DNA from: a virus
Lineage: Duplodnaviria > Heunggongvirae > Uroviricota > Caudoviricetes
Length of the DNA: 4,544 bases
Direction: 5' to 3' (one strand)
Virus record (IMG/VR): IMGVR_UViG_2778261512_000017
The notes under the pieces are model-generated. The model worked only from the letters and a program-made list of their open reading frames with translations. It was not told the DNA's origin and did not search any database. Both the position numbers and the translations under genes were made by a program. Positions within the stretch are counted from its first letter, which is position 1. Each line of letters begins with the position of its first letter. Of the stretch, positions 1 through 4,544 are shown in pieces.

Positions 1-198
1 ATACAAATTCAATCGAACTATTCCGGCAGATGCTACGACTACGGTCATGAATTCTCGTATGTTATCGGAATGGCGAGAGACGTTTTAATAAACCACACAC
101 GAGATGTTGATATTAATGAGCCAGACGGACCAACGAATCTTTCCGCATGGATGAGACTTAAGAATAAAGAATTGCCTCCTTCAGTACATAACTACTGA
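1..198 (+). CDS. 3' end (C-terminal 65 codons) of an upstream gene truncated by the window start; product unidentified
   Basis: Frame 1 is open from position 1 to a TGA at 196-198 (translation ...[24 protein letters not shown]). It is followed 18 nt later by a strong intrinsic terminator. In P22-like genomes the tailspike is preceded by late or immI-region genes, but I do not recognise this fragment. It is absent from the ORF track because it has no start codon in the window. Confidence 0.4.
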
Positions 199-215
199 CA
201 GATAACCAACGCAAC

Positions 216-241
216 GACCCAGCTTCGGCTGGGTTTTTTTA
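216..241 (+). terminator. Rho-independent terminator (6-bp GC-rich stem, TTCG tetraloop, T7 tract)
   Basis: CCCAGC (218-223), loop TTCG (224-227), GCTGGG (228-233), then TTTTTTT (234-240). It sits right after the upstream stop and 58 nt before the tailspike ATG. Confidence 0.75.
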
Positions 242-286
242 TGCCCAAAATTCACCGTAGCTACGCTGCGGCGATTCCTTGTATCT

Positions 287-290
287 GGAG
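287..290 (+). promoter_or_regulatory. Shine-Dalgarno (GGAG) for the tailspike gene
   Basis: GGAG lies 8 nt upstream of the ATG at 299-301. An in-frame TAA at 296-298 makes that ATG the only possible start. Confidence 0.55.
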
Positions 291-298
291 CAAATTAA

Positions 299-637
299 AT
301 GACAGACATTACAGCCAATGTTGTAGTAAGCATGCCTTCGCAACTCTTCACTATGGCGCGTTCTTTTAAAGCGGTTGCCAATGGCAAAATTTATATCGGT
401 AAAATTGACACTGATCCGGTAAATCCTGAAAACCAGATTCAGGTTTATGTGGAGAACGAAGACGGTTCTCACGTTCCTGTTTCGCAACCAATCATCATTA
501 ACGCTGCTGGATATCCGGTATATAACGGACAGATTGCCAAGTTCGTTACTGTGCAAGGCCATTCTATTGCTGTGTACGATGCATATGGATCACAGCAGTT
601 CTATTTCCCAAACGTGTTGAAGTATGATCCAGATCAG
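299..637 (+). other. Tailspike N-terminal head-binding (particle-attachment) domain, residues ~1-113
   Basis: High similarity, recalled from memory, to the P22/Sf6/HK620 tailspike N-terminal domain. It ends at the conserved YDPDQ hinge (residues ~109-113), after which the sequence diverges. Confidence 0.8.
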
Positions 638-2101
638 CTAAGACAGGAGTTGTCTGGTGATGATGGAGCCTCATTAATAGGTCTTTGTCCTGGTCACACT
701 GTTGCAGATTTGATTGGTGCAGGTATCAGCGACGGAGATGCAATGATACCTGTTATTCAACCTTATACCGGAGCAGTAAAAAGGACTCAGCATGAAAAAA
801 ATGCAGAGAATCTTACAGTTGCAGATTGGGGAGCTGTGAGCGATGTTGAATCATCAATCTCAGCTCAGAAGATGATTGACGATATAGGTATGCTGATTGT
901 TCCCGAAGGGTTTACTCTCGTTGCAAAAAATCTCAACCTTTCTTCAGCAAAAAAAGTGATTGTAAAGGGGAAGCTCAAATTACCGTCTGGATGTGTCGAC
1001 TTTGACAGATTACTTTACGCAGCAGGTAATAACTCTGGTCTAATAATTCACATTAATGAGATTGATGGTAATAAAGCAGGACAATCAGGACAGATTGGAA
1101 CCCATCTTGTCTATCTGACAGAGTGTCAGAACGTAGATTTTTACGCTCATTATGTCCATGACCATTACTACCCTCGCACTTTTATAAGTGCACCATCACC
1201 AGATGGAATCCGCAATGACGGCTCTGGTTGTCTGTTTTTCTATCAGTGCCATTACTCAAAGTTTATCGTTGATCGGATTGAATCGTGGGGGCATGAAGCG
1301 TTTTATATTTACAAAACTAATAGAAGTATTGCGGCACTAGGGCATGCACAAGGCGCTTCTGGTGATGACGCTTATTCTGGTATTCAATTTAGTGGTGATT
1401 ATAACCGTTTGCTTTATGCATCTGTGGATCTTGCATCAGCATCAGGCATTGGTTTTGATTGCCGCTGGAGCATGGCAGGAAAGTTGATATCTACCAACAC
1501 GCAATTTTTCCACGGTATTAACTTTGGACATGCTGGACTGCCAACAACAGGATCCACAATTGAGAGTGTTTATGTTAATACTTGCGAGCAAAACGGTATT
1601 AACTTTGCGGCAGGATCGGCAAATACCAGAGTTCTTTCAGCTTATATTAATGCTGCAGGAAAAAGTGGTGTTAACCAATCGGATGGTGCTACAGATAACA
1701 CCGTGAATAATGCCACTGTTGTTAATTCAGGTATTGCACAGGTTACCAGTTATCAAAATAATCTTGTCTTGACAAATTGCAATCTTACAACCGTAACAAG
1801 TGCACTCATTCCAAAGCTAAACCCAACTGGAGGAGGTACATTTACAATAAGAAACGTCCTTCTTTCTGCAACTGAAAAGATGGTGATGAAGTCATTCAAT
1901 GGATTGAGTGGTGTAGCTTCAGCAACACTGGTTGATGAAAATATAACACCTTATTCACAAGTTGTGATTCACCCAGCAAATGCTTCAGCTGCAGCAGCAA
2001 ATGCATATGTTTTAAGTCAATCAAACGGAAGTCTTGTCCTTGCTACGCAGTCAGGTTCTCCAGCTGCAGGCGGAGCAAGCTTCAGATATATGGTGATATA
2101 A
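299..2101 (+). CDS. Phage tailspike protein (P22-like podovirus type): conserved N-terminal head-binding domain plus a divergent receptor-binding domain
   Basis: 600-aa ORF. The N-terminus [88 protein letters not shown]...NVLKYDPDQ matches, from memory, the conserved particle-binding domain of P22-family tailspikes (P22 gp9, Sf6 gp14, HK620). Downstream is Gly/Asn/Ser/Thr-rich sequence typical of beta-helix receptor-binding domains. Unambiguous start, SD present, terminator directly after the TAA at 2099-2101. Confidence 0.93.
638..2098 (+). other. Tailspike receptor-binding domain (probably a polysaccharide-binding/processing beta-helix), residues ~114-600; specificity unknown
   Basis: The sequence after the YDPDQ hinge ([15 protein letters not shown]...) does not match the P22 or Sf6 receptor-binding domains as I recall them. 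The composition (G, N, S, T, V, I rich, Asn-rich C-terminal region) fits a beta-helix fold. No GDS(x) or DxxH SGNH motifs are present, so there is no sign of esterase chemistry. Confidence 0.6.
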
Positions 2102-2103
2102 AG

Positions 2104-2129
2104 AAAAAGCCTCTGAGTAGAGGCTTTTT
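2104..2129. terminator. Bidirectional rho-independent terminator shared by the convergent tailspike and acetyltransferase genes
   Basis: AAAAA-GCCTCT-(GAGT)-AGAGGC-TTTTT: a perfect 6-bp GC-rich stem (2109-2114 / 2119-2124) with a 4-nt loop, flanked by an A5 run 5' and a T5 run 3', so it works as a hairpin plus U-tract on either strand. It fills the 30-nt gap between the two stop codons (TAA 2099-2101 on +, TAG at 2132-2134 on -). Confidence 0.75.
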
Positions 2130-2131
2130 AA

Positions 2132-3973
2132 CTACTTTATCTTGCTAAAGATATATTCACCAACCTTAACTGACCATACCTTTGTAAGATGAGAGTTATC
2201 CGTGTAAACAGGCATATCTCCATCAACCACTCTACATTTGCCATCACTGCATATTGCTGGGCTAGGGTCAACGAAATGAACTTTTTGATATTGCTCAGCA
2301 AATATTTTAAATCTGCTATTCATTGCAGGCTCTATATAATCCTGAAACTCATTGCATTTTCTGAATAATTTATTAATAGGAAGGTCTTGTGATGCCAGGC
2401 ATTGATACATGATTTCCTTGCTTCCCTGGGTATCACCAACAATATATATCTGGCTGTTAGAGCCTTTAATATCATCAAGAAAATATTTCATTTCACTGAT
2501 GAAATCATTTTTATAAGAATTGTCAGTCGTTAGCGGGTTTCCAACCTTTCCAGTATACCACGCTTGCAACCATACGACTTTCTTGCCAGGATGGGCATTA
2601 ATGAATTCAACGGCCTTCTTATATCTTCCTTCGCAAATCTTTCTGAGTTTTTCAGAATAGTTTAGCGGCCCCATAAAATGCTTTGTAACTTTACAACCAT
2701 CCGCAGCTAGCGATGCTACTTTAAGACCGCTTTGTTTGAAGAAAGCGAAATAGTGTCTTGCATGGCTGTCACCAAGTATGATGTAGTCAAAGTCTTTTTC
2801 TGTAGCGTTGAAGTAGTCTACATTCTCTCCAGGCTGCATCCATAAATGTCCTTCGTAAGCCCGGCGGAACAGGTCTTTATTAAGATGGTAATCAGGATTC
2901 TTAATGCGACTACTTACCCCGTCGACATTGACATACAAAGCGGCTGCGAGACATACACAATAACAGAAAAGCAATCCCCATCCATAACCACGACGCTTCT
3001 CTACAAGGCTATAAAGTAGTGCTGAGGCTGACACTACACCAGCCAGATACCAGAAAATATTTAACTCAATTCCCGTCTTCTCGCAAAAGACGATTACCGG
3101 CCAGTGGATCAAGTATATTGAATAGGACCAGAGCCCAAGCTTTCCAATGATCTTACCAGAAAGAATGGTTCTTTTATTGTCAGCAAGAATGCAGATATAG
3201 GCCCCGAATACTGGAATAAACGCAATGTAGCCAGGCCACGCCAAGCTTTCGCTCATGAACGCGAGAGACAGCGCGATCAATATTAGCCCTGCTGATTCCA
3301 AAACTCGTCTTGATTTATCGCTACCTTTAAACGGGAACAGAAAAGCAATGCCTCCCAGCATCATTTCCCAACCTCTTGATGCGATGCTGAAGTATGATGA
3401 CACGGGATCAGTTCTGGTTATGTAAATGCACCATGCAAAAGAAACAACAGCAATCGCAACAACAAATATTTTAAGATTTTTTATTGACAATATCTTTGAC
3501 AGTGCAAGTAACACTATCGGGTAAATTATATAGAATTGCCATTCAACTGATAGCGACCATGTATGCAGTAAAAATTTTTGCTTTGATGTATCATCAAAAT
3601 AACCTGATTCAGACTGATAAATAATATTGGAAATAAATGTTAGACTTGCCGCAGAATGTTTTCCTATGATCTGTAATGTCATAGGCTCAAAGAACATATA
3701 ACCAATAATCAGTGTAAGGAATACAACTGCAACGAGAGCAGGAACTATACGTCTCGCCCTTGCTTTCAGGAAGTCAATAACCGAAAAAGAATTAGATTCT
3801 ATCCCTCTGAATATAATTGATGTCATCAAGTATCCAGATATGACGAAAAACACGTCTACACCAATAAATCCGCCTGGAATTATAGAAGATGAAAAATGAA
3901 ACAAAACAACACTTATAACAGCTATAGCTCTTAGGCCATTAATGTCATTTCTGAACTTTGTTGTAACTGTCAT
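2132..3973 (-). CDS. Two-domain membrane O-acetyltransferase (AT3 acyltransferase-3 domain fused to a C-terminal SGNH domain); OafA/Oac-like O-antigen acetylase, probable lysogenic-conversion factor
   Basis: 613-aa ORF with hallmark acyltransferase-3 motifs: R14 in NGLRAIAV, H26 in FHF, VDVFFVISGY (39-48), RRIVP (74-78), HTWSLSVEWQFY (137-148), and many hydrophobic helices through ~residue 350. The C-terminal region carries SGNH-type motifs GDSH (401-404) and DNSH (592-595, a DxxH pair). SD AGGA lies ~7 nt upstream of the ATG (plus coordinates 3980-3983). This is the architecture of Salmonella OafA/OafB-type O-antigen acetyltransferases, and the position beside a tailspike mirrors oac in Sf6. 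Confidence 0.92.
   Translation of the reverse strand: MTVTTKFRNDINGLRAIAVISVVLFHFSSSIIPGGFIGVDVFFVISGYLMTSIIFRGIESNSFSVIDFLKARARRIVPALVAVVFLTLIIGYMFFEPMTLQIIGKHSAASLTFISNIIYQSESGYFDDTSKQKFLLHTWSLSVEWQFYIIYPIVLLALSKILSIKNLKIFVVAIAVVSFAWCIYITRTDPVSSYFSIASRGWEMMLGGIAFLFPFKGSDKSRRVLESAGLILIALSLAFMSESLAWPGYIAFIPVFGAYICILADNKRTILSGKIIGKLGLWSYSIYLIHWPVIVFCEKTGIELNIFWYLAGVVSASALLYSLVEKRRGYGWGLLFCYCVCLAAALYVNVDGVSSRIKNPDYHLNKDLFRRAYEGHLWMQPGENVDYFNATEKDFDYIILGDSHARHYFAFFKQSGLKVASLAADGCKVTKHFMGPLNYSEKLRKICEGRYKKAVEFINAHPGKKVVWLQAWYTGKVGNPLTTDNSYKNDFISEMKYFLDDIKGSNSQIYIVGDTQGSKEIMYQCLASQDLPINKLFRKCNEFQDYIEPAMNSRFKIFAEQYQKVHFVDPSPAICSDGKCRVVDGDMPVYTDNSHLTKVWSVKVGEYIFSKIK
2135..2806 (-). other. SGNH (GDSL-like) domain, residues ~390-613, predicted periplasmic
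   Basis: Block I GDSH (S403, codon at plus 2765-2767) and C-terminal DNSH (D592/H595, plus ~2191-2200) match the SGNH catalytic Ser and Asp/His signature. The domain follows the last TM helix after a ~40-residue linker. Confidence 0.75.
2924..3973 (-). other. AT3 (acyltransferase family 3) integral-membrane domain, residues ~1-350
   Basis: Conserved AT3 motifs listed above plus multiple predicted transmembrane helices. The final hydrophobic segment GWGLLFCYCVCLAAALYVNV (331-350) is consistent with an extra helix that would place the C-terminal domain in the periplasm. Confidence 0.8.
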
Positions 3974-4110
3974 TTATAATCCTAAATTTAATGACTATAC
4001 CTTAGCCGTAATGATCACTGCAAAACAATGAGTTGAAGTGTATCACTACGCAGTAACTCGATCGACAGTAACGATTATGACAAATGTGCTAATCATGGCA
4101 CTTTCCTGAG
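3974..4110 (-). promoter_or_regulatory. Putative promoter/regulatory region of the acetyltransferase gene (exact promoter not resolved)
   Basis: Non-coding sequence directly upstream of the - strand ATG. On the - strand a TATAGT (plus 3994-3999) sits 18 nt downstream of a weak -35-like TTGCAG (plus 4018-4023), with a GATC (plus 4013-4016) inside the spacer. A second GATC (4060-4063) lies in the palindrome TCGATCGA, flanked by direct CAGTAAC repeats (4051-4057 and 4066-4072). The promoter assignment is tentative because the leader would be very short. Confidence 0.3.
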
Positions 4111-4544
4111 GATAGTCATAAATGGAATGTATGGATTGTTCAAATAATTAGCAAAAAATTATATCTCTAGGCATAAAGACGGTGATACGTCTTGTGTTGG
4201 AAATCTTAGTGACACGGGACAAAATGGGACGCACAAAGCTTTGCACTTGATTGCAAGGATTTGTGTCATTCGATAGTTAAGGTGGCTTACTCTACCTTCT
4301 CATCAATCCAGTCCGCCCACCACTGCATCATTTCTCTGCGCTTATCGTGGCAGATGCCTCACTATCACACGGTGATGGTTCATTACTGGTTTGCATAATG
4401 GATAGAGAACTGAGGATAAAAGATATCCCAAAACCCCAAAATCTCATCTTTAGGATTTGCAGAAAGGGAGGCGTGAACAAATACCTGCGCATGAAAACGG
4501 AACTAGTCCAGATGTGATGTTTGTGGTGATCACATACATCATTA

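What the first reader, a model, noticed from the sequence alone, without database searches (positions are those of the whole stretch)
299..2101. Mosaic tailspike: conserved P22-type head-binding domain joined at the YDPDQ hinge to an unrecognised receptor-binding domain
The first ~113 residues are the conserved particle-binding module of P22-family tailspikes, and the sequence departs from the P22 and Sf6 receptor-binding domains I recall immediately after the KYDPDQ linker (nt ~630-640). This is the classic domain-swap point that changes host serotype specificity. The ~487-residue C-terminal module is shorter than that of P22 and may target a different O-antigen or capsule. It sits beside a gene that chemically modifies surface polysaccharide, which points to the glycan the spike reads.
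Basis: partly seen in the sequence, partly recalled or inferred. Interest (0 to 1): 0.55.

Follow-up and report, generated by a model that had tools for sequence, protein, structure and literature searches.

The report
Mosaic prophage tailspike, uncharacterised receptor domain
This is the tail spike gene of a P22-like E. coli prophage: a standard particle-attachment domain joined to a rare, uncharacterised sugar-binding beta-helix module that moves between unrelated phages and probably reads an O-antigen, possibly the pseudaminic-acid-containing O136.

Summary
ORF 299-2101 (+) encodes a 600-aa protein. Residues 1-113 are a full-length P22-type head-binding domain (Pfam PF09008, E 1.7e-66), 93% identical to Sf6 and 77% to P22. 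DNA similarity to every known P22-like phage stops at nt 637-651, just after KYDPDQ (nt 620-637).

Residues 114-600 match no Pfam, NCBIfam or PHROG family over their body and no PDB sequence, and have no full-length match in 50,697 phage records. The AlphaFold model is a confident right-handed beta-helix whose best structural neighbours are only 8-16% identical.

The module belongs to a small family: 39 clusters at 90% identity, and 83 representatives at E<=1e-30 among 1.84 billion. Members are fused to at least four different adaptors. Homology starts exactly at residue 114.

In temperate relatives the gene is always followed by a convergent O-antigen-modifying gene. Here that is an AT3-SGNH O-acetyltransferase with intact motifs. 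E333 and D387 are the only invariant acidic residues.

The only complete E. coli genome of 5,426 carrying the cassette is one of four with O136 wzy (pseudaminic-acid O-antigen).

Verdict: a new member of a known kind, a mosaic tailspike. The O136 link is a lead resting on one genome.

The parts
1..198 (+). 3' end of the antirepressor gene ant (P22_AR_C domain), cut by the contig end
   Evidence: The called gene carries PF10548. It matches ant in P22-like phages.
216..235 (+). Intrinsic-terminator-like hairpin plus T run between ant and the tailspike gene
   Evidence: 8-pair stem followed by TTTTTAT. A terminator is annotated at the same place in epsilon34 and HK620.
299..2101 (+). Tailspike gene, 600 aa (WP_244571633.1)
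299..637 (+). Head-binding (particle-attachment) domain, aa 1-113, ending in KYDPDQ (nt 620-637)
   Evidence: PF09008 E 1.7e-66. 93% identical to Sf6 and 77% to P22.
638..943 (+). Start of the exchangeable receptor module: neck and linker '[15 protein letters not shown]...' (aa 114-147) and helical cap (aa about 148-215) with the Sf6-like motif [10 protein letters not shown]...RTQHEKN...DWGAV
   Evidence: The junction at aa 114 is shared with relatives that carry other adaptors. The cap matches Sf6 and AlgE4 in profile searches.
944..1798 (+). Right-handed parallel beta-helix body (aa about 216-500). The conserved stripe lies at aa 228-415.
1295..1297 (+). Codon of E333, an invariant acidic residue and candidate catalytic carboxylate
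   Evidence: Invariant in A1 (40 sequences) and in A2 (71 sequences down to 20% identity).
1457..1459 (+). Codon of D387, an invariant acidic residue and candidate catalytic carboxylate (motif ASGxGFD)
   Evidence: Invariant in A1 and A2.
1799..2098 (+). C-terminal beta-strand domain (aa about 501-600), variable in sequence, with invariant R596 (in A1) near the end
   Evidence: Secondary structure and pLDDT 83-93. Conservation.
2104..2129 (.). Hairpin flanked by A and T runs between the convergent tailspike and acyltransferase genes; likely a bidirectional terminator
   Evidence: 11-pair stem. Sequence AAAAAGCCTCTGAGTAGAGGCTTTTT.
2132..3973 (-). O-antigen O-acetyltransferase candidate, 613 aa: membrane AT3 domain fused to a periplasmic SGNH domain
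   Evidence: PF01757 E 1.2e-29 and PF19040 E 2.8e-26. PHROG 6705 'O-antigen acetylase' E 1.4e-147. Motifs R15-X10-H26, R72-xx-R75, G401-D-S and D592-xx-H595 are present, with about 9 hydrophobic segments.
4288..4347 (-). Last ~20 codons of an intS-type integrase gene. Similarity to the other copies of the cassette ends at 4347.
   Evidence: Mapped from the L001 intS annotation and blastn end-points.
4348..4544 (.). Non-coding prophage-end sequence shared with other lambdoid, P22-like and Stx prophages, running to the contig end

Best explanation
ORF 299-2101 is the tailspike of a P22-like (Lederbergvirus-type) temperate phage of E. coli. The window is one whole 4.5-kb contig of a draft genome.

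Architecture and mechanism:
- Residues 1-113 dock the spike on the tail hub, as in P22 and Sf6. This is shown by homology.
- From residue 114 onward the protein is a self-contained exchangeable receptor module: a neck, a cap, a right-handed beta-helix of roughly 11-12 rungs, and a C-terminal beta domain.
- The module belongs to a small, uncharacterised sequence family that has been fused to at least four different virion adaptors.
- By analogy with every studied beta-helix tailspike, I infer that it forms a trimer and binds the host's O-antigen chains along a groove. That groove would be marked by a stripe of conserved residues on successive rungs (aa 228-415).
- I infer that it cleaves the chains hydrolytically, with E333 and D387 as the catalytic carboxylates, so that the virion can descend to the outer membrane.
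- The convergent downstream gene, an AT3-SGNH acyltransferase, is a lysogenic-conversion gene. I infer that it O-acetylates the same O-antigen and so blocks superinfection by phages that read it.
- The best candidate glycan is E. coli O136, whose O-antigen contains Pse5Ac7Ac and GlcNAc.

Sub-probabilities: mosaic tailspike with an uncharacterised beta-helix receptor module, about 0.9. Receptor is an O-antigen, about 0.75. Enzyme is a glycoside hydrolase using E333/D387, about 0.5. Specificity is O136, about 0.35.
For: Head-binding domain.

Phage context: ant, terminator, tailspike, oac and int follow the Sf6 order. An intact P22-like virion gene set (gp7, gp20- and gp16-type ejection proteins, arc/mnt, ant) lies upstream of a 98%-identical copy in L003.

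Module mobility: the same module is 83% identical behind a PF18668 adaptor in a siphovirus-type prophage (L007), 71% in an Enterobacter ludwigii prophage (L009), and 51% behind a T7-tail-fibre adaptor in a T7-like genome (L008). The junction is exactly at aa 114.

O-antigen as receptor: in all temperate contexts examined (three copies of the E. coli cassette, plus L007 and L009) the spike is followed by a convergent O-antigen modification gene. These are AT3-SGNH here and in L003/L004, a GtrC-like gene plus GtrB in L007, and a 335-aa AT3 in L009.

Catalysis: E333 and D387 are the only invariant acidic residues in 71 sequences down to 20% identity. Conserved residues recur every 24-28 aa, which is one helix rung.

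O136: only 1 of 5,426 complete E. coli genomes carries the cassette. That genome has O136 wzx/wzy and pseBCFGI. Only 4 of 5,426 genomes have O136 wzy, giving about 7e-4 under no association. O136 contains Pse5Ac7Ac (PMC7685785).
Against: No activity, binding or trimer data exist, and the model is a monomer. The catalytic assignment rests on conservation alone; I could not read model coordinates to check that E333 and D387 face one groove.

The O136 link rests on one genome. Its prophage is a decayed remnant with no head genes, so the O-antigen could have changed since infection. Another O136 genome has an empty argW site.

A spike whose receptor module is only 57% identical sits beside a 99%-identical acyltransferase in another strain, so the acyltransferase does not uniquely pin down the spike's specificity.

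The top structural hits include lyases and epimerases as well as hydrolases.
Confidence: 0.75

Rival explanations
1. The receptor module is merely a diverged copy of an already characterised tailspike (Sf6, HK620, P22, CUS-3 endosialidase and so on), so specificity and mechanism are already known.
For: Sf6 gp14 aligns up to residue 211. Foldseek ranks Sf6 first.
Against: The Sf6 match beyond residue 113 covers only the cap (aa about 144-211, about 35-40% identity). The Foldseek rank is driven by the head-binding domain; Sf6 receptor-domain chains give TM about 0.4 at 14-15% identity. There is no full-length tblastn hit in 50,697 phages. Family-profile searches of the PDB find nothing over the helix body. 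No Pfam, NCBIfam or PHROG family covers the body.
Confidence: 0.03
2. The spike reads and degrades an O-antigen other than O136, and the O136 lysogen is a coincidence or reflects a later O-antigen switch.
For: Only one complete lysogen could be serotyped, and its prophage is a remnant. The cassette also sits at a different attachment site in another strain (L003). A receptor-module variant only 57% identical shares the same acyltransferase.
Against: The chance that a random complete genome is O136 is 4/5426.
Confidence: 0.4
3. The receptor is a capsule or another exopolysaccharide rather than LPS O-antigen.
Against: P22-like spikes with this adaptor mostly read O-antigen. CUS-3, whose spike is annotated as a K1 endosialidase, is the known exception (own knowledge). 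Relatives of the module sit next to gtrB/gtrC-type genes and AT3 genes, which modify O-antigen. PHROG labels the neighbour 'O-antigen acetylase'.
Confidence: 0.15
4. The beta-helix is a lyase or epimerase-like enzyme, or a non-catalytic binder, rather than a hydrolase.
Against: The AlgE4 active-site motif as I recall it (YG-F-D-P-H) reads I-G-F-D-C-R here, so the Tyr and His are absent (own knowledge plus the sequence). No invariant Lys or Arg lies in the conserved stripe in A2. The two invariant carboxylates fit a glycosidase. If the substrate is O136, it has no uronic acid for beta-elimination (own knowledge). An invariant acidic pair would be unexpected in a pure binder.
Confidence: 0.2
5. 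The gene is a dead relic of decaying prophages and has no function.
For: The Tig228 copy lies in an ~11-kb prophage remnant. The window is an isolated 4.5-kb contig.
Against: The ORF is intact in about 50 variants at 98-99% identity. In L003 it lies in a prophage with a full run of virion genes. IMG/VR holds a 26-kb viral contig with a 99%-identical copy.
Confidence: 0.05

Closest known systems
Shigella phage Sf6 tailspike gp14 (endorhamnosidase; PDB 2vbk, 7sg7) with its oac-int neighbourhood
   Same: The head-binding domain is 93% identical (105/113). Both have the YDPDQ hinge and a cap motif after it (about 35-40% identity over aa 144-211). Gene order is tailspike, convergent O-acetyltransferase, integrase in both. 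Both have a right-handed beta-helix fold.
   Different: No detectable sequence similarity exists over the helix body or the C-terminal domain (TM about 0.4, 14-15% identity). Sf6 Oac is an AT3-only protein (own knowledge), whereas the neighbour here is an AT3-SGNH fusion. Sf6 gave no hit among the acyltransferase relatives listed.
Salmonella phage P22 tailspike gp9 and coliphage HK620 tailspike
   Different: Receptor domains are unrelated in sequence (11-18% identity in structural alignments). The module here is shorter: 487 aa against about 553 in P22.
Acinetobacter phage APK16 tailspike depolymerase gp47 (PDB 8opz)
   Different: Identity is 12%. hhalign finds only the 33-residue cap motif (probability 28%) and BLASTP finds nothing. 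The adaptor (T7-type), the host and the C-terminal domain all differ. The resemblance is in fold and perhaps substrate class; it is not family membership.
AlgE4 mannuronan C-5 epimerase A-module (PDB 2pyg) and the Pect-lyase_RHGA_epim / Beta_helix Pfam families
   Different: The window protein itself matches neither Pfam family at E<=0.001. The AlgE4 catalytic Tyr and His are not conserved here (own knowledge plus the sequence).
Salmonella OafA/OafB-type AT3-SGNH O-antigen acetyltransferases (for the neighbouring gene)
   Same: The two-domain architecture is the same: PF01757 plus PF19040. The R-X10-H, RXXR, GDS and DXXH motifs are present (the significance of these motifs is from my own knowledge of the OafA/OafB literature).
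   Different: The closest phage homologues are only 57% (Escherichia phage PAS61) and 46% (Enterobacter phage Tyrion) identical. There is no PDB sequence match. The acceptor sugar is unknown.

Membership tests
P22-type tailspikes (Pfam PF09008 head-binding family; Lederbergvirus-like podophages) | Full-length N-terminal head-binding domain | tested here: met
   PF09008 covers 1-113 of 113, E 1.7e-66. 93% identical to Sf6 and 77% to P22.
P22-type tailspikes (Pfam PF09008 head-binding family; Lederbergvirus-like podophages) | YDPDQ hinge followed by an exchangeable receptor domain | tested here: met
   KYDPDQ is at aa 108-113. Homology to all P22-like phages ends at nt 637-651. Relatives with other adaptors align from aa 114.
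P22-type tailspikes (Pfam PF09008 head-binding family; Lederbergvirus-like podophages) | Position at the end of the late operon, after ant, in a P22-like genome | tested here: met
   The 3' end of ant lies upstream. In L003 the same gene follows P22 gp7, gp16-type ejection proteins, arc/mnt and ant.
P22-type tailspikes (Pfam PF09008 head-binding family; Lederbergvirus-like podophages) | Homotrimeric right-handed beta-helix receptor domain | tested here: inconclusive
P22-type tailspikes (Pfam PF09008 head-binding family; Lederbergvirus-like podophages) | Receptor-destroying (endoglycosidase) activity on host polysaccharide | not testable with these tools
   The only support is inference from the invariant E333 and D387.
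Characterised receptor domains of Sf6, P22 or HK620 | Sequence similarity across the beta-helix body and C-terminal domain | tested here: not met
   phmmer and profile searches of the PDB hit only the cap. tblastn against phages covers at most 19% of the module.
APK16_gp47-type depolymerases | Sequence homology of the catalytic beta-helix | tested here: not met
   hhalign probability 28% over 33 cap residues. BLASTP E 0.79 or worse.
AT3-SGNH O-antigen acetyltransferases (OafA/OafB type), for the neighbour gene | N-terminal AT3 membrane domain plus C-terminal SGNH domain with catalytic motifs | tested here: met
   PF01757 and PF19040. R15-X10-H26, RARR72-75, GDS401-403 and D592-x-x-H595 are present.
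AT3-SGNH O-antigen acetyltransferases (OafA/OafB type), for the neighbour gene | Acetylation of a defined O-antigen sugar | not testable with these tools
   Support comes only from the annotation-level PHROG label 'O-antigen acetylase'.
O136-specific receptor-binding protein (proposed, not an established family) | Lysogens carry the O136 O-antigen gene cluster | tested here: inconclusive
   One of one complete lysogens is O136, against a background of 4/5426. Draft lysogens could not be serotyped.

The most novel reading that the evidence does not exclude
The module would be the first tailspike receptor domain specific for a pseudaminic-acid-containing E. coli O-antigen (O136, an enteroinvasive serogroup). 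It would found a glycoside hydrolase family with an E333/D387 catalytic pair and no characterised relative. Its fold-level resemblance to the Acinetobacter K16 (Pse-containing) depolymerase APK16_gp47 would then reflect convergent or very ancient adaptation to Pse-Gal-HexNAc repeats. The paired acyltransferase would switch the O136 epitope on and off for two spike variants that are only 57% identical.
Probability: 0.25. Interest if true: 0.5.

Novelty: new member of a known kind. Interest (0 to 1): 0.35.

Why it matters
Tailspike receptor modules determine which serotype a phage can infect. They are the raw material for phage typing, engineered host range, diagnostics and glycan-cleaving enzymes.

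This module has no characterised relative. It is shown here to be portable between podovirus, siphovirus-type and T7-like chassis, with a precise junction at residue 114, which makes it a ready-made part for swapping.

If the O136 link holds, it would fill a gap. A published catalogue that links E. coli phage receptor-binding proteins to serogroups does not mention O136 (PMC10408124). It would also provide an enzyme acting on a pseudaminic-acid O-antigen of an enteroinvasive serogroup.

Otherwise this is one more example of well-understood tailspike mosaicism.

Tried and rejected
- Sequence searches for a characterised homologue of residues 114-600 found nothing over the helix body. I tried Pfam, PHROGs, NCBIfam, PDB phmmer and two PDB profile searches.
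- A sub-threshold HMMER alignment to the Sf6 catalytic region (score about 0 bits) was not used.
- I looked for more complete lysogens to serotype. The cassette is in 1 of 5,426 complete genomes, and the 57% variant (P0007 type) is in none.
The source assembly accession appears in no paper.
- The argW site of a second O136 genome is empty, which is uninformative.
- I considered a Wzy-based reverse look-up of draft assemblies. I dropped it because the tool collapses identical neighbourhoods and would not list the samples.
- Model coordinates are not exposed, so I could not measure the geometry of the E333/D387 pair.
- My first MAFFT sliding-identity plot misaligned the 3' end of the gene. I used the BLAST and protein alignments instead.
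Full report
**What is in the window.** The window is the complete 4,544-bp contig NLQJ01000102.1 of the E. coli draft assembly GCA_002231255.1. It holds the following features in order:
- the 3' end of the antirepressor gene ant (nt 1-198, P22_AR_C);
- a terminator-like hairpin (216-235);
- the ORF in question (299-2101, +, 600 aa, GGAG 8 nt upstream);
- a hairpin flanked by A and T runs (2104-2129);
- a convergent 613-aa gene (2132-3973, -);
- the last ~20 codons of an intS-type integrase (about 4288-4347, -);
- non-coding sequence shared with the ends of other lambdoid and P22-like prophages.

**Checking the observation.** Pfam's Head_binding model (PF09008) matches residues 1-113 end to end, with E 1.7e-66 and 222 bits against a cut-off of 24.
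- PDB searches align residues 1-117 to P22 gp9 and 1-211 to Sf6 gp14.
- Over the first 113 residues the protein is 105/113 identical to Sf6 and 87/113 to P22.
- KYDPDQ occupies aa 108-113, nt 620-637.
- At the DNA level, 134 phage records match the window. For the listed P22-family phages (epsilon34, HK620, CUS-3, Kapi1, Emek, Sf6) the tailspike match ends between nt 637 and 651.

The observation and its coordinates are confirmed.

**The C-terminal module is not a known one.** Residues 114-600 give no full-length tblastn match in 50,697 phage records. The best hits cover only the first ~100 residues at 30-41% identity (one 49-residue stretch reaches 51%).
- PHROG matches are confined to that same cap region.
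- NCBIfam has no model for the protein.
- The module alone hits no Pfam family at E<=0.001.
- PDB sequence searches with the single protein, a 40-sequence profile and a 71-sequence profile reach only the Sf6 cap motif (GDAMIGVKQP...RTQHDKN...DFG) and the N-terminal ~115 residues of AlgE4. Nothing matches over the helix body.

One refinement applies: high identity stops at the hinge, but a weak Sf6-like cap motif continues to about residue 211.

**Fold.** An AlphaFold2 model built on the family alignment has pLDDT mostly above 90 from about residue 170 to 500, and 83-93 for most of the C-terminal hundred residues. It is low only over the head-binding domain, which few alignment rows contain.
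- All of these are only 8-16% identical.
- Foldseek ranks Sf6 first because of the shared N-terminus. Sf6 receptor-domain chains give TM about 0.4 at 14-15% identity.

So the fold is the expected one, but the sequence family has no characterised member.

**The family and its mobility.** A search of 5.8 billion clustered proteins found 39 clusters.
- The window protein is WP_244571633.1, named only 'phage head-binding domain-containing protein'. It sits in a cluster of about 50 near-identical E. coli variants.
- An exhaustive HMM search of 1.84 billion representatives found 83 at E<=1e-30 and 178 at E<=1e-10.
- IMG/VR's 2.9 million viral contigs yielded one 99%-identical copy and a dozen distant ones.
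- Relatives carry different N-termini: Head_binding, Tail_spike_N (PF18668), the T7 tail-fibre N-terminus (PF03906), the endosialidase N-extension, tail-collar fibre and collagen repeats.
- BLASTP shows that eight relatives with non-P22 adaptors begin to align exactly at residue 114. The conserved opening there is LR(Q/S)(E/D)L...DGA.L(I/V)G.G.GHTVADL...GDALIPV(I/V)QP, directly after YDPDQ here and after '...GDA(S/A)' in the PF18668 proteins.

Genomic contexts confirm at least three virion types:
- P22-like prophages (this window, L001, L003, L004);
- siphovirus-type prophages with tape-measure and J-like genes (L007 at 83% identity, L009 in Enterobacter ludwigii at 71%);
- a T7-like genome (L008, 51%).

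**What it reads.** In every temperate context examined, the spike gene is followed by a convergent gene that modifies O-antigen:
- the 613-aa AT3-SGNH protein here and in L003 and L004;
- a GtrC-like (PF14264) plus GtrB (PF00535) pair in L007;
- a 335-aa AT3 protein in L009.

The neighbour in the window has both Pfam domains and matches the PHROG 'O-antigen acetylase' at E 1.4e-147. It keeps the R-X10-H, RXXR, GDS and DXXH motifs and about nine hydrophobic segments. The functional meaning of these motifs comes from my knowledge of the OafA/OafB literature. This pattern supports an LPS O-antigen receptor and a lysogenic-conversion role for the neighbour. Both remain inferences.

**Which O-antigen.** Only one of 5,426 complete E. 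coli genomes carries the spike-acyltransferase cassette: isolate Tig228, 99.5% identical over nt 288-4347, in a decayed prophage at argW.
- Its O-antigen locus has O136-family wzx and wzy and the pseudaminic-acid genes pseBCFGI.
- O136 wzy occurs in only 4 of the 5,426 genomes, so the chance of this under no association is about 7e-4.
- O136 contains Pse5Ac7Ac (PMC7685785) and GlcNAc (PMC12503535). From memory of Staaf et al. 1999, the unit is a Pse-Gal-GlcNAc trisaccharide.
- The published catalogue of E. coli receptor-binding-protein subtypes by serogroup does not mention O136 (PMC10408124).

I rate O136 specificity at about 0.35. It rests on one genome with a remnant prophage, and a second O136 genome has an empty argW site.

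**How it probably works.** Conservation within the family is concentrated in aa 228-415: CxDFDR, NEIDGN..AGQSG.IGTHL.Y, PDG.R, WG.E, YSG.Q.SG, ASG..FD and FGH.G.P.
- These motifs recur every 24-28 residues, which is one rung. They therefore form a stripe along one face of the helix.
- The distal helix and the C-terminal domain are variable.
- In the deeper 71-sequence alignment, reaching down to 20% identity, the only invariant acidic residues are E333 and D387.

This fits a two-carboxylate endoglycosidase, as in P22, Sf6 and HK620. It does not prove one.
- The AlgE4-type Tyr/His motif is absent, and no invariant basic residue marks a lyase site.
- If the substrate is O136, it has no uronic acid to undergo beta-elimination (own knowledge).

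**Side observations.** A second spike type (P0007, found in Escherichia sp. WS436 and E. coli) has a receptor module only 57% identical.
- It lies in DNA that is at least 95% identical up to nt ~740 (aa 147, 34 residues past the hinge). Similarity returns to about 97% overall from the stop codon through an acyltransferase that is 611/613 identical.
- All copies of the cassette lose similarity to the window at exactly nt 4347, inside the integrase 3' end. The flanks to the right differ.

**Verdict.** It is a new member of a well-known kind, a mosaic P22-type tailspike, carrying a receptor module from a small, uncharacterised but mobile beta-helix family. That makes it routine in concept for specialists. 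It is moderately interesting for the precise module boundary, the candidate catalytic pair and the testable O136/pseudaminic-acid lead.

Noticed in passing
window 740-2101 compared with L004 10440-11806: A second tailspike type (P0007) has a receptor module only 57% identical. Its flanks are nearly identical: at least 95% up to nt ~740 (34 aa past the hinge), and about 97% overall from the stop codon through a 611/613-identical acyltransferase. Two diverged spikes are therefore paired with one O-acetyltransferase. This type is absent from all 5,426 complete E. coli genomes.
   Followed up: partly
window 4288-4347 and 4348-4544: Similarity to the other three copies of the spike-acyltransferase cassette (L001, L003, L004) ends at exactly nt 4347, about 60 nt into the 3' end of intS. 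Beyond that point the contexts differ: intS plus tRNA-Arg argW, the chromosome near the bio operon, and in the window a sequence shared with the ends of Stx and P22-like prophages. This looks like a fixed recombination breakpoint.
   Followed up: partly
L001 13376-25160 (NZ_CM196107.1, isolate Tig228): The only complete-genome copy lies in an ~11-kb prophage remnant at argW. The remnant holds torI, lysis genes, two ejection proteins, arc, an HNH gene, the spike, the acyltransferase and intS, but no head or portal genes. The spike and acyltransferase ORFs are nonetheless intact.
   Followed up: no
L007 11874-14203; L009 11875-12882: Relatives of the receptor module in siphovirus-type prophages are followed by convergent O-antigen modification genes of other kinds: GtrC-like plus GtrB, and a short AT3. 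The pairing of spike with modifier is kept while both partners change.
   Followed up: partly
window 2100-2700 and 3450-4200: G+C drops to 32-37% at both ends of the acyltransferase gene and in its upstream region, against 40-46% in the tailspike and in the middle of the acyltransferase gene. This is consistent with a separately acquired accessory gene carried by the prophage.
   Followed up: no
L006 34762-37119 (Acinetobacter phage APK16 gp47): The best structural neighbour of the module degrades a pseudaminic-acid-containing trisaccharide capsule, the same sugar class as the O136 O-antigen of the one serotyped lysogen. There is no detectable sequence homology.
   Followed up: yes
window 1-4544: The window is an entire draft-genome contig. 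It breaks inside ant on the left and in repeated prophage-end sequence on the right, probably because several P22-like or lambdoid prophages in that genome collapse in assembly.
   Followed up: no
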